From the NCBI RefSeq assembly GCF_056746865.1, contig NZ_CM163382.1: a stretch of 64,000 nucleotides of DNA, one strand, 5' to 3'. A program made the position numbers and the translations under genes. The notes beneath the pieces were generated by a model, which was not told the DNA's origin, ran no database searches, and saw nothing but the letters and a program-made list of their open reading frames with translations. This document shows, piece after piece, positions 10,290-48,366 of the stretch (position 1 is the stretch's first letter; the number at the start of each line of letters is the position of its first letter).

Positions 10290-11234
10290 ATGCACGCTTA
10301 TCTTCACTGTCTTTCCCACTCGCCGCTGGTGGGGTATGTCGACCCGGCGCAAGAGGTGCTCGATGAGGTCAATGGCGTGATTGCCAGCGCCCGCGAGCGT
10401 ATTGCGGCTTTCTCCCCTGAACTGGTGGTGCTGTTTGCGCCAGATCACTACAACGGCTTTTTCTATGACGTGATGCCACCGTTCTGTTTAGGCGTTGGAG
10501 CGACGGCAATTGGTGATTTCGGTAGTGCGGCAGGAGAGCTGCCCGTGCCTGTTGAGCTGGCGGAGGCCTGTGCGCATGCCGTCATGAAGAGCGGGATCGA
10601 TCTTGCCGTTTCTTACTGTATGCAGGTGGACCACGGGTTCGCCCAGCCGCTGGAGTTCCTGCTCGGCGGGCTGGATAAGGTGCCGGTTTTGCCTGTGTTC
10701 ATCAACGGTGTCGCCACGCCGTTGCCCGGTTTCCAGCGTACCCGCATGTTGGGTGAAGCCATTGGACGTTTCACCAGTACTCTCAATAAACGCGTGCTGT
10801 TCCTGGGTTCCGGTGGGCTTTCCCATCAGCCGCCGGTGCCAGAACTGGCGAAAGCCGATGCCCATATGCGCGACCGTCTGTTGGGGAGCGGGAAAGATTT
10901 ACCCGCCAGTGAGCGCGAATTGCGTCAGCAACGGGTGATTAGCGCCGCTGAGAAGTTTGTTGAGGATCAGAGAACGCTGCATCCCCTCAACCCGATTTGG
11001 GATAACCAGTTCATGACTTTGCTGGAGCAGGGACGCATACAGGAACTGGATGCCGTCAGTAACGAAGAGCTTTCCGCCATTGCCGGAAAGTCGACACATG
11101 AAATCAAAACCTGGGTCGCCGCTTTTGCCGCTATTTCTGCGTTTGGCAACTGGCGTAGCGAAGGGCGTTATTACCGCCCAATCCCGGAGTGGATTGCCGG
11201 ATTTGGCTCGTTAAGCGCCAGAACAGAGAACTGA
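10290..11234 (+). CDS. mhpB: 2,3-dihydroxyphenylpropionate 1,2-dioxygenase (extradiol)
   Basis: 314 aa; operon position after mhpA. Confidence 0.88.
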
Positions 11235-11251
11235 ATATGCAGGAGAAGATG

Positions 11252-12118
11252 ATGAGTTATCAGCCACAAACCGAAGCCGCCACCAGTCGTTTTCTGAATG
11301 TAGAAGAAGCGGGTAAAACGCTGCGCATCCATTTTAATGACTGCGGACAAGGCGACGAAACTGTTGTCCTGCTGCATGGTTCCGGCCCGGGTGCTACTGG
11401 CTGGGCGAACTTCAGCCGCAATATCGATCCGCTGGTAGAGGCGGGCTATCGGGTGATCCTGCTGGATTGTCCGGGTTGGGGTAAGAGCGATTCGATCGTT
11501 AATAGTGGTTCGCGATCGGATCTTAATGCGCGAATCCTGAAAAGCGTGGTGGATCAACTGGATATCGCCAAAATCCACCTGCTGGGCAACTCGATGGGCG
11601 GCCACAGTTCTGTGGCGTTCACTCTTAACTGGCCGGAGCGCGTCGGCAAACTGGTGCTGATGGGCGGCGGTACGGGCGGCATGAGTTTGTTTACGCCGAT
11701 GCCAACCGAAGGTATTAAGCGACTGAATCAGCTTTATCGTCAGCCGACTATCGAAAACCTGAAGCTGATGATGGATATCTTCGTTTTTGATACCAGCGAT
11801 TTGACCGACGCCCTGTTTGAAGCGCGCCTGAATAATATGCTGTCGCGCCGCGATCACCTGGAAAACTTCGTTAAGAGCCTGGAAGCCAATCCGAAACAGT
11901 TCCCGGATTTTGGCCCACGTCTGGCGGAAATCAAAGCGCAAACCCTGATTGTCTGGGGGCGCAACGACCGCTTTGTGCCGATGGATGCGGGTCTGCGTCT
12001 GCTGTCCGGCATTGCCGGTTCTGAACTGCATATCTTCCGCGACTGTGGTCACTGGGCGCAGTGGGAACATGCCGACGCTTTCAATCAACTGGTGCTGAAT
12101 TTCCTCGCACGCCCTTAA
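11252..12118 (+). CDS. mhpC: 2-hydroxy-6-oxononadienedioate hydrolase (alpha/beta hydrolase)
   Basis: [21 protein letters not shown] start preceded by aggag; GNSMGG nucleophile elbow; 288 aa. Confidence 0.88.
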
Positions 12119-13880
<1,762 letters not shown>

Positions 13881-46452: not shown

Positions 46453-46523
46453 TTTTGCGTGACAGCCAGCGCCTCTGGCCCCTATAGTGAAGTAGATGTT
46501 CAACTACCAGACAGGGCCAGTTT

Positions 46524-46808
46524 ATGCTTCAAAGTAATGAGTACTTTTCCGGCAAAGTGAAATCGATCGGCTTTTCCAGCAGCAGCACTGGTCGCGCCAG
46601 CGTGGGTGTTATGGTTGAAGGCGAATACACCTTCAGCACCGCTGAGCCGGAAGAGATGACGGTAATCAGTGGCGCGCTGAATGTGTTACTGCCTGACGCG
46701 ACCGACTGGCAAGTGTATGAAGCCGGTTCGGTGTTTAATGTTCCCGGTCACAGTGAGTTTCATCTGCAAGTTGCCGAACCCACCTCTTATCTGTGCCGCT
46801 ATCTGTAA
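46524..46808 (+). CDS. ppnP: pyrimidine/purine nucleoside phosphorylase PpnP (YaiE)
   Basis: 94 aa, [17 protein letters not shown]... Confidence 0.88.
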
Positions 46809-46811
46809 TTC

Positions 46812-46850
46812 CTCGCCTTCCCCTTGAACGGGAGGGCATTTTTCTGAAAT
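46812..46850 (+). terminator. probable intrinsic terminator after ppnP
   Basis: gccttcccc / gggagggc imperfect hairpin followed by atttttct. Confidence 0.45.
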
Positions 46851-47015
46851 GTTCTCTCATAAACCCATAATAATATTTCCTTTGCTGCGATTTTTTCGAT
46901 TTCCGATATATTCATAATTCATCAAGGTTGATATAAATATCAGCGAAGATCTCCAGATATTGTTGCGGAACTGGCGACGATAAAAGATAAATCAGATGAT
47001 GAATGGTGGCGTGCA

Positions 47016-47297
47016 TTGCTGCAAAGTCGCAATGATCATTTGCGCCAAACGGCATTGCGCAACGCACATACCCCGGCGTCGTTGTTAACGGCATTGACTG
47101 AGCCTCAGGATCGGGCGTTGGTTATTAATAATCCACAGTTGGCTGCCGATGTGAAAACGATGTGGTTAAAAGATGATCCATCATTACTCTTATTTGTCGA
47201 TCAACCCGCTCTTTCGCAGTTACGGGATTTAGTGAAAACCGGGGCAACGCGGAAAATTCGCAGTGAAGCGCGTCACCGGCTTGAGGAAAAACAATGA
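47016..47297 (+). CDS. hypothetical small ORF in the ykiA position (possible gene remnant)
   Basis: 93-codon ORF with TTG start only; lies between ppnP and rdgC where K-12 annotates ykiA; coding status doubtful. Confidence 0.3.
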   Translation: MLQSRNDHLRQTALRNAHTPASLLTALTEPQDRALVINNPQLAADVKTMWLKDDPSLLLFVDQPALSQLRDLVKTGATRKIRSEARHRLEEKQ

Positions 47298-47402
47298 CAC
47301 AACGCCCATGGAGCAAGTTACAGCGTAAAACGCATAATATTGCTGCGCTAAAAATTATTGCCCGCCGTAGCGAATAATTATATGCCTGGTGTGGCTTCGT
47401 AC

Positions 47403-47435
47403 GCCGGATAAGACGCGGCAGGCGTCGCATCCGGC
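47403..47435. repeat. REP element upstream of the rdgC 3' end
   Basis: gccggataagacgcggcaggcgtcgcatccggc. Confidence 0.6.
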
Positions 47436-47454
47436 ATTAAAGGTAAATCAGCAA

Positions 47455-48366
47455 TTAACGTTGTGCTTCGCCACCTAATCCTTCAATCAGGTTTTGAATT
47501 AACGCTGCCAGTTCACCAGTCATCAGGATGAAATCGGCATCAAAACGCTGGGCGAAATCTTCACGGTCGATATCTTCGTTTTGATCGCGCAGCTCGTCGC
47601 AGAACTTCAGACGCTTGAGCGAACCATCGTCGCACATCACAAACTGAATGCGCTGCTGCCAGTCGAGCGCCAGTTTAGTCACCACTTTTCCGGCTTCAAT
47701 GTGATTGGTGATCTCTTCGCTGGTCAGATCTTGTTTCTTCGCGCGGATCACTCCACCATCTTCCAGCAGCGATTTCAGCTCGGCTTCATCAAGCAGCTGG
47801 AAGCCCTGTGCCGCGCTGCCGGAGCGTACCCATTCGGTCAGCGTCAGTTCAATCGGGTTTTCCATGCTCAATGGTACAACCGGTAACGACCCCAGGCTTT
47901 TACGCAGTAATGCCAGCGTATCTTCCGCTTTTTTGGCACTGGCGCAGTCCACCATAATCAAACCGTTAACCGTGTCGATCCACATCATTGTCTGGCTAAA
48001 ACGGCTGAAAGCACGTGGCAGCAGAGAGTGCAGCACTTCGTCTTTCAGCGAATCTTTTTCGGTTTTCTTCAGCTTACGCGCCTGTTCCGCTTCCAGTTTG
48101 GCGATTTTCGCTTCCAGCGCCTGTTTAATCACCGGAGACGGGAGGATTTTTTCTTCTTTGCGCGCGCAGATAACAATTTGACCATTGGCAACGTGCGTTA
48201 ACGCATCGCTGTGCGATCCCATCGGAGGAACCCAGCCCATCTTCGCCATGTCCTGGCTGCCGCATGGGGTAAATGCCATCGAGGCTAGCTGTTTTTCCAT
48301 CTCTTCTGCACGCAGCGAAATCTCGCGGCTAAGACGGTAAACCATTAAATTTTTGAACCACAGCAT
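47455..48366 (-). CDS. rdgC: recombination-associated protein RdgC
   Basis: [37 protein letters not shown] start, 303 aa. Confidence 0.92.

What the first reader, a model, noticed from the sequence alone, without database searches (positions are those of the whole stretch)
46851..47300. Doubtful ORF in the ykiA position between ppnP and rdgC
The only ORF here (47016..47297) lacks an ATG start (TTG only) and its frame continues upstream without a start, with helical-repeat-like content (…QTALRNAHTPASLLTALTEPQDRALVINNPQLAADVKTMWL…). It looks more like a decayed fragment of a larger gene than an independent gene.
Basis: seen in the sequence. Interest (0 to 1): 0.25.

Follow-up and report, generated by a model that had tools for sequence, protein, structure and literature searches.

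The report
ykiA pseudogene: relic of a larger gene
The doubtful ORF is the start-less last 113 codons of a 759-codon exported repeat-protein gene that is still intact in about 8% of E. coli genomes, so it is an ordinary pseudogene that reference annotation already records.

Summary
Window 46956..47297 is the ykiA pseudogene. It is annotated as such in E. coli K-12 (b0392) and by PGAP ("DUF2773 ... missing N-terminus").

- **Intact ancestor.** O157:H7, some other E. coli and two other Escherichia species (sp. E4930 and E. whittamii) carry the full gene at the same ppnP–rdgC locus. It encodes 759 aa: a signal peptide, an N-terminal beta-helix and an LRV/HEAT-like alpha-solenoid. In E. coli a 151-aa SF0329-family gene follows it.
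- **What the window keeps.** The window retains the ancestral upstream region and the last 113 codons. It lacks 1,934 nt, including the start codon. The junction is best explained by a 1,070-nt non-homologous deletion plus an 864-nt deletion between 12-nt direct repeats.
- **ykiD.** The neighbouring 27-aa gene (47294..47377), whose protein was detected in K-12 by tagging, is itself a relic. It is an SF0329 gene with an in-frame 372-nt deletion.
- **Distribution in 5,426 complete E. coli genomes.** About 4,490 have the window type. 444 have at least 80% of the full-length locus. 54 have the remnant plus intact SF0329. About 420 have a further-deleted form.
- **Selection.** Remnant alleles show relaxed constraint: 26 non-synonymous against 14 synonymous changes, one with an internal stop.

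Verdict: already known, low interest.

The parts
46524..46808 (+). ppnP (upstream flanking gene)
   Evidence: PGAP annotation of the identical sequence in strain 118UI; ORF.
46815..46845 (+). ppnP intrinsic terminator-like hairpin followed by a T-run
   Evidence: Terminator scan: 8-pair stem at 46815..46837, then ATTTTTCTGA.
46809..46950 (+). Retained upstream (promoter/leader) region of the ancestral full-length ykiA gene. It ends 2 nt before the position of the ancestral ATG.
   Evidence: Window 46500..46950 is collinear with O157 locus L003 111..561 at 98.7% identity. In K-12 this intergenic region carries a BglJ-RcsB-activated promoter with a mapped transcription start (PMC3950696). The start-site coordinate could not be retrieved.
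46951..46967 (+). Junction segment CTCCAGATATTGTTGCG. These 17 nt come from the middle of the ancestral gene (codons ~357-362, 'SPDIVA'). Its last 12 nt (46956..46967, GATATTGTTGCG) are the direct repeat at which the second deletion occurred.
   Evidence: Exact match to L003 1632..1648 (18-nt BLAST hit, E = 2.6e-4). The 12-mer occurs at L003 1637 and 2501, and the two copies are identical 12/12 in the VE-T9 allele. The left junction 46950|46951 corresponds to loss of L003 562..1631.
46956..47297 (+). ykiA pseudogene: the last 113 codons (647-759) plus the stop of a 759-codon gene. It has no start codon, no signal peptide and no N-terminal domains.
   Evidence: 95.6% identical to L003 2501..2842. 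Annotated as a pseudogene or 'missing N-terminus'. Pfam DUF2773 covers 47052..47294.
47016..47297 (+).
   Evidence: The TTG is codon L667 of the full-length protein, a nearly invariant leucine in the family, so its presence says nothing about start-codon use.
47294..47377 (+). ykiD, a 27-aa ORF with an ATGA overlap to the ykiA stop and its own GAGGA Shine-Dalgarno sequence. It is the relic of a 151-aa SF0329-family gene after an in-frame 372-nt deletion.
   Evidence: The sequence is identical to K-12 YkiD, which was detected by SPA tag. The first 11 and last 16 residues match intact SF0329 of strain A16.
47316..47325 (+). Junction of the 372-nt deletion inside SF0329 (imperfect direct repeat AGTTACrGCG)
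   Evidence: The overlap of the two BLAST pieces maps to both L003 2861..2870 and L003 3233..3242.
47385..47440 (.). REP-type palindromic element between ykiD and rdgC
   Evidence: A repeated copy occurs elsewhere in the locus (L003 5341..5379). There is a partial sub-threshold Rfam naRNA4 (REP-derived) match at 47403..47438. The element is also present in full-length loci.
47455..48366 (-). rdgC (downstream flanking gene)
   Evidence: PGAP annotation.

Best explanation
Window 46956..47297 is a non-functional 3' remnant (pseudogene) of ykiA.

The ancestral Escherichia gene at the ppnP–rdgC locus encoded a 759-aa exported protein. That protein had a Sec signal peptide, an N-terminal beta-helix domain and a long LRV/HEAT-type alpha-solenoid. 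In E. coli an SF0329-family gene followed it with an ATGA stop/start overlap.

In the ancestor of most E. coli, 1,934 nt were lost. A 1,070-nt non-homologous deletion removed the start codon, the signal peptide and the N-terminal half. An 864-nt in-frame deletion between two 12-nt direct repeats (GATATTGTTGCG) in homologous solenoid repeats removed most of the rest. The order of the two events is unknown.

What remains is the original promoter region fused to the last 113 codons, with no initiation codon. The remnant therefore makes no YkiA protein. It is transcribed from the retained promoter (BglJ-RcsB-activated in K-12) and acts, at most, as a roughly 350-nt leader for the downstream mini-ORF ykiD. 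That ORF is translated from its own Shine-Dalgarno sequence and is itself a deletion relic of SF0329.

Shown here: homology, junctions, distribution and relaxed constraint. Inferred: absence of translation of the remnant, the leader role and the two-step order.
For: - **Intact gene at the same locus.** A full-length 759-aa gene sits at the identical locus in O157:H7, strain A16, a divergent E. coli, Escherichia sp. E4930 and E. whittamii.
- **Collinearity and junctions.** These are. All remnant types examined carry the same junction, GAAGAT|CTCCA…TTGCG|G, apart from point differences in YJ1, CB209 and the further-deleted variant. This implies a single origin.
- **Annotation.** The region is annotated as a pseudogene or as missing its N-terminus.
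- **No start.** There is no ATG, GTG or TTG between the upstream stop and the TTG at 47016. K-12 additionally has an in-frame TGA just upstream.
- **Selection.** Intact orthologues are under purifying selection: dN/dS is 0.12-0.19 for the whole gene and 0.23-0.24 for the last 113 codons. Seven remnant alleles carry 26 non-synonymous (one a nonsense change) against 14 synonymous variants. That ratio is compatible with neutrality (p = 0.095) and differs from the intact-gene expectation (p = 0.01). Pairwise dN/dS is about 0.3-1.3.
- **Continuing decay.** One allele has an internal stop, one has a 3-nt deletion, and about 420 genomes have deleted the rest of the remnant.
- **Independent knock-out.** One full-length allele is disrupted by an IS3 element.
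- **Loss of targeting.** A translated fragment would lack the signal peptide and the beta-helix.
Against: - The 93-codon frame is still open in the window and in most alleles sampled. At about 5% divergence this is expected by chance.
- A weak GGTGG lies 6 nt upstream of the TTG, so low-level initiation cannot be excluded from sequence alone.
- The locus is transcribed and regulated in K-12 (PMC3950696), and the overlapping ykiD is translated (PMC6001520).
- Some pairwise dN/dS values are below 1. Counts are small, and part of the polymorphism may have been imported from full-length alleles by recombination.
- No ribosome-profiling or proteomic data could be examined here.
Confidence: 0.93

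Rival explanations
1. The 93-aa TTG ORF (or a 113-aa version from a non-canonical start such as ATT at 46959) is an independent, expressed short gene. It would encode a cytoplasmic DUF2773 mini-protein that gained a new role after truncation.
For: The frame is open in most alleles. Pfam treats DUF2773 as an 81-aa family of its own. The promoter is active and regulated in K-12. The GAAGA motif that preceded the ancestral ATG now lies 9 nt upstream of an in-frame ATT. A weak GGTGG precedes the TTG.
Against: There is no canonical start with a good Shine-Dalgarno sequence. K-12 has an in-frame TGA just before the remnant. Constraint is relaxed and one allele carries a nonsense change. About 420 genomes have deleted the segment entirely. 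The fragment is seven helices cut out of a large solenoid and lacks its export signal. RefSeq and PGAP call it a pseudogene.
Confidence: 0.04
2. The remnant is kept as functional non-coding sequence. It would be a long 5' leader that controls expression or stability of the ykiD mRNA, or it would shield the convergent rdgC 3' end.
For: ykiD protein is made in K-12, and no separate promoter was examined, so its mRNA probably starts at the ykiA promoter upstream of the remnant. The remnant-plus-ykiD form is the commonest, at about 4,490 of 5,426 genomes.
Against: The remnant is among the most divergent stretches locally, at 92.7-98% identity between alleles. It tolerates indels and is wholly absent in about 420 genomes. 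YkiD itself varies (R11H, T13K, K19R, R24C and a shortened end). No Rfam family or structured element was found.
Confidence: 0.03

Closest known systems
E. coli K-12 ykiA (b0392), annotated pseudogene; PGAP 'DUF2773 domain-containing protein, incomplete, missing N-terminus'
   Same: Same locus, same boundaries (342 nt), same junction sequence and same downstream ykiD. 95.6% nucleotide identity over the remnant.
   Different: Allelic differences only, 15 nt and 9 aa. K-12 also has an in-frame TGA immediately upstream of the remnant, where the window has CGA.
Full-length DUF2773 protein of E. coli O157:H7 (WP_120795310.1, 759 aa), with orthologues in E. coli A16, Escherichia sp. E4930 and E. whittamii
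   Same: The window frame is collinear with codons 647-759, and the upstream intergenic region is shared.
   Different: The window lacks codons 1-646 apart from 17 nt, that is the start codon, signal peptide, beta-helix domain and most of the solenoid.
LRV (leucine-rich repeat variant) / HEAT-type alpha-solenoid proteins
   Different: The E. coli protein itself gives only a sub-threshold HEAT hit. The N-terminal beta-helix plus signal peptide architecture is not that of classical LRV or HEAT proteins. The function is unknown.
SF0329 family (Pfam PF25753 / NCBIfam NF049912), the parent of ykiD
   Same: The first 11 and last 16 residues of YkiD are those of intact E. coli SF0329, and the ATGA overlap with the ykiA stop is the same.
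   Different: 124 codons are missing, and the 27-aa product no longer matches the family model.

Membership tests
Truncated-gene pseudogene (ykiA, b0392) | Homology to only part of a longer gene that is intact in relatives at the same locus | tested here: met
   Codons 647-759 of the 759-codon gene found in O157:H7, A16, a divergent E. coli, Escherichia sp. E4930 and E. whittamii, all between ppnP and rdgC.
Truncated-gene pseudogene (ykiA, b0392) | Loss of the initiation codon and N-terminus, with definable deletion junctions | tested here: met
   Junctions lie at 46950|46951 and within 46956..46967. The ancestral ATG is deleted, and there is no ATG, GTG or TTG before 47016.
Truncated-gene pseudogene (ykiA, b0392) | Relaxed selective constraint relative to intact orthologues | tested here: met
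   26 non-synonymous against 14 synonymous changes, including a nonsense allele, and indels. The same codons give dN/dS 0.23-0.24 in intact genes. The sample is small (7-8 alleles).
Truncated-gene pseudogene (ykiA, b0392) | No protein product | not testable with these tools
   No Ribo-seq or proteomics data are accessible here. The literature search found no report of a YkiA product.
Pfam DUF2773 (PF10971) | Score above the family gathering threshold (25 bits) | tested here: met
   137.6 bits, E = 1.5e-40, covering the full 81-position model. The model covers only the last 81 residues of 759-aa proteins, so the family in effect describes the pseudogene-sized fragment.
LRV / HEAT repeat alpha-solenoid | Repeat-family HMM match above threshold | tested here: inconclusive
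   Hits on the 759-aa-type relatives are all sub-threshold (LRV 18.8-19 bits against 21.6; HEAT 15.5 against 23.5). LRV reaches threshold only in two longer relatives that share the N-terminal domain, P0202 and P0249 (36 bits).
LRV / HEAT repeat alpha-solenoid | Helix-turn-helix repeat solenoid fold | tested here: met
SF0329 family (for ykiD) | Match to the family HMM | tested here: not met
   The 27-aa YkiD gives no hit in Pfam or NCBIfam. Descent from SF0329 rests on DNA collinearity instead.
Validated small protein YkiD (K-12 b4732) | Same sequence and position as the SPA-tag-detected protein | tested here: met
   The peptide MTQRPWSKLQRKTHNIAALKIIARRSE is identical and lies between ykiA and rdgC.

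The most novel reading that the evidence does not exclude
The mini-ORF left behind by SF0329 decay may be retained by selection rather than by accident. E. coli has ykiD (27 aa) and Escherichia sp. E4930 has an independently derived 21-aa ORF, MRLRRKTHNIAALKIIIRRSE. Both arose by different in-frame deletions. Both kept the ATGA-overlapped start and the basic C-terminal tail of SF0329. This could indicate a functional micro-protein, or a need for translation through this spot, expressed from the BglJ-RcsB-controlled promoter with the ykiA remnant as leader.
Probability: 0.07. Interest if true: 0.35.

Novelty: already known. Interest (0 to 1): 0.12.

Why it matters
It matters little for biology. 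The region is a textbook decaying gene that reference annotation already flags.

Three modest points follow from the work:
- **Pfam DUF2773.** The family is in effect modelled on the pseudogene-sized C-terminal fragment of a 759-aa exported beta-helix/alpha-solenoid protein. Its description could be corrected.
- **YkiD.** This validated small protein of K-12 is a translated deletion relic of an SF0329 gene, not a dedicated small-protein gene. That is a caution for small-protein catalogues.
- **A decay series.** The locus shows full length, then a 5' deletion, then either an SF0329 internal deletion or complete loss of the remnant, plus an IS3 knock-out. This series could help date gene loss across E. 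coli lineages.

The functions of intact YkiA and SF0329 remain unknown.

Tried and rejected
- **Sequence search against solved structures.** Full-length YkiA gave no hit and SF0329 gave only noise at E ≥ 0.13.
- **PADLOC defence models.** No hit for either protein.
- **NCBIfam.** Nothing for the remnant or for YkiD.
- **Rfam at permissive threshold.** Only a sub-threshold REP-derived naRNA4 fragment, and no RNA gene in the remnant.
- **P0004 as the hypothetical 471-aa in-frame-deletion intermediate.** It is simply residues 283-759 of the full protein, so rejected.
- **YkiA and SF0329 as an obligate pair.** YkiA relatives elsewhere stand alone without SF0329. SF0329 relatives occur without YkiA in varied contexts. 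A fixed two-gene system is therefore not supported.
- **ykiA transcription start coordinate.** I tried to retrieve it from PMC3950696, but it appears only in a figure and the supplement is not held.
- **One-step deletion with polymorphism at the junction.** Rejected, because 17 consecutive junction bases exactly match an internal site 865 nt upstream.
- **Minus-strand ORFs 47125..47430 and 46912..47094.** No family match, so treated as spurious.

Full report
**1. What is in the sequence**

The window is E. coli. Positions 46500..47500 are 100% identical to strain 118UI and 97% identical to K-12.

Translating the frame further upstream shows it stays open back to a TGA at 46929..46931. None of the 28 intervening codons is ATG, GTG or TTG.

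The translation matches Pfam DUF2773 at E about 1e-40, so the frame is real coding-derived sequence and not a chance ORF.

The flanks are ppnP (46524..46808) with a terminator-like hairpin at 46815..46837, and rdgC (47455..48366, minus strand).

**2. Existing annotation**

PGAP annotates the identical sequence as [quoted passage not shown] at window 46956..47297, followed by "protein YkiD" at 47294..47377. The K-12 reference types ykiA (b0392) as a pseudogene and ykiD (b4732) as a CDS.

**3. The full-length ancestor**

In O157:H7 the ppnP–rdgC interval holds a 2,280-nt gene for a 759-aa DUF2773 protein. An SF0329-family gene overlaps its stop codon (ATGA).

The window aligns to this locus in three blocks:
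- 46500..46950 matches L003 111..561, ending 2 nt before the ancestral ATG.
- 46956..47325 matches L003 2501..2870.
- 47316..47500 matches L003 3233..3418.

Full-length genes also sit at the same locus in strain A16, a divergent E. coli at 90% aa identity, Escherichia sp. E4930 at 73% aa identity and E. whittamii. The gene is therefore ancestral to the genus at this position.

A degenerate DNA scan for the invariant NDHNFEVM motif across 100,044 species representatives found only two Escherichia species. A profile search of 1.84 billion representative proteins found 280 relatives at E ≤ 0.001. About 40 of these have the same ~750-800-aa architecture.

**4. Anatomy of the deletion**

The window junction reads GAAGAT|CTCCAGATATTGTTGCG|GAACTGG. 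The 17-nt middle piece is an exact copy of an internal site (L003 1632..1648; the BLAST hit extends one further base, to 1631). Its last 12 nt (GATATTGTTGCG) recur at L003 2501. In the VE-T9 allele the two copies are identical 12/12.

The simplest history is two deletions:
- A non-homologous deletion of L003 562..1631 (1,070 nt), which removed the start codon.
- A deletion of 864 nt (288 codons, in frame) between the two 12-nt repeats. These repeats encode equivalent "(S)(P)DI(V/F)A" positions of two solenoid repeats.

Every remnant examined shares this junction, apart from point differences in YJ1, CB209 and the further-deleted variant. The set comprises the window, K-12, five other strains, the "intermediate" form and the further-deleted variant. 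The event therefore happened once.

**5. ykiD is also a relic**

Window 47294..47377 encodes MTQRPWSKLQRKTHNIAALKIIARRSE. These are residues 1-11 and the last 16 residues of intact 151-aa SF0329 (strain A16), joined by an in-frame 372-nt deletion at an imperfect repeat AGTTACrGCG.

YkiD has its own GAGGA Shine-Dalgarno sequence and was detected in K-12 by chromosomal SPA tagging (PMC6001520). Its sequence varies between strains: R11H, T13K, K19R, R24C and a shortened end. This argues against strong constraint.

The family alignment shows that the "…KIIARRSE" ending is ancestral. The O157:H7 copy has a +1 A frameshift that changes its last residues.

**6. Distribution in 5,426 complete E. coli genomes**

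| Architecture | Genomes | Source |
|---|---|---|
| At least 80% of the full-length locus present | 444 | |
| Remnant plus intact SF0329 ("intermediate") | 54 | |
| Junction followed by deletion of the rest of the remnant up to the SF0329 ATG, with SF0329 frameshifted in the genome examined | about 420 (474 minus 54) | |
| Window type (remnant plus ykiD) | about 4,490 (4,543 minus 54) | |

One full-length allele is interrupted by an IS3 element.

**7. Selection**

| Comparison | Result |
|---|---|
| Intact orthologues, whole gene | dN/dS 0.12-0.19 |
| Intact orthologues, last 113 codons | dN/dS 0.23-0.24 |
| Seven remnant alleles | 26 non-synonymous (one W70* nonsense) : 14 synonymous |
| Remnant ratio against neutrality | p = 0.095 |
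| Remnant ratio against the intact-gene expectation | p = 0.01 |
| Remnant alleles, pairwise | dN/dS 0.3-1.3 |

One allele has a 3-nt deletion and another has an indel at the 5' edge. The numbers are small but all point to relaxed constraint.

**8. What the ancestral protein was**

AlphaFold2 with a 42-sequence alignment gives a confident model (pLDDT 90.9):
- An N-terminal signal-peptide-like helix, with the MNRINILVICMVLFFMTGNACA|TEW motif visible in the sequence.
- A beta-helix at about residues 65-176.
- An all-helical solenoid from about residue 240 to 759.

The window remnant corresponds to the last seven or so helices. If translated, it would lack the export signal.

**9. Expression context**

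In K-12 the ppnP–ykiA intergenic region carries a promoter activated by BglJ-RcsB, with a 5'-RACE-mapped start and a mutationally verified binding site (PMC3950696). That paper treated ykiA as a 113-aa protein of unknown function.

The same upstream region is retained in the window. It differs from K-12 in a cluster of substitutions at about 46850..46862. I infer that the remnant is transcribed and serves as the leader of the ykiD mRNA. This was not tested.

**10. SF0329 side-track**

SF0329 proteins are about 60% identical across distant phyla. They occur as solitary genes in varied contexts. Sometimes they lie in same-strand arrays of small genes, in some cases next to an integrase, that include Imm10, Macro, SUKH-3 and WGR/DUF4240 proteins. 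From my own knowledge, this resembles the poly-immunity or acquired interbacterial-defence islands described in the polymorphic-toxin literature. It is a lead only. No structural or family evidence supports it.

**11. Verdict**

The feature is the known ykiA pseudogene, and it is ordinary.

Beyond the existing annotation, this work adds:
- the identity and architecture of the parent gene;
- the exact junctions and their likely two-step origin;
- the derivation of ykiD from SF0329;
- the population distribution of four decay states.

Noticed in passing
window 47294..47377 (ykiD): The validated small protein YkiD is the in-frame fusion of the first 11 and last 16 codons of a 151-aa SF0329-family gene (372-nt deletion). 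It varies between strains (R11H, T13K, K19R, R24C and a shortened end).
   Followed up: yes
L022 6275..6343 (Escherichia sp. E4930): Downstream of its intact ykiA, this species carries a different, independent in-frame deletion of SF0329. It leaves a 21-codon ORF (MRLRRKTHNIAALKIIIRRSE) with the same ATGA overlap and the same C-terminal tail as ykiD. This may be coincidence (each deletion has a 1-in-3 chance of being in frame) or retention of the tail.
   Followed up: partly
L003 3262..3288 (O157:H7 SF0329 3' end): The O157:H7 SF0329 copy has an extra A in a poly-A run. It ends ...KNYCPP instead of the family-consensus ...KIIARRSE seen in A16, the window and relatives, so even this 'intact' copy carries a terminal frameshift.
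   Followed up: partly
Pfam PF10971 (DUF2773), matched at window 47052..47294: The 81-position Pfam model covers only the extreme C-terminus of 759-aa proteins. The family appears to have been defined on the pseudogene-sized fragment.
   Followed up: yes
L007 1726..12270, L008 635..8756, L005 3238..6471, L006 5070..7252 and 10347..12331: In L007 and L008, SF0329 homologues sit just downstream of a tyrosine recombinase, in same-strand arrays of small genes that include Imm10 and Macro proteins. L005 and L006 have similar arrays with WGR/DUF4240, SUKH-3 and Macro proteins, but no recombinase was seen there. This resembles poly-immunity or acquired interbacterial-defence islands. Other homologues are solitary.
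   Followed up: partly
window 47385..47440: A REP-type palindromic element lies between ykiD and rdgC. It gives a partial sub-threshold Rfam naRNA4 hit (47403..47438), and a second copy occurs near araJ in L003 (5341..5379).
   Followed up: no
L017 1730..2957 (strain VE-T9); hits H7 and H15: An IS3-family element independently interrupts a full-length ykiA allele in VE-T9. An IS1A insertion lies within the queried ppnP–rdgC segment in an E. coli B derivative (B-LamR) and in strain E100341.
   Followed up: no
window 46850..46862: A cluster of substitutions in the ppnP–ykiA intergenic region distinguishes K-12 (ATATCCTTTCTTTAGCC) from the window and O157 (ATGTTCTCTCATAAACC). It lies in the region that carries the BglJ-RcsB-regulated promoter in K-12, so promoter behaviour may differ between strains.
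   Followed up: no
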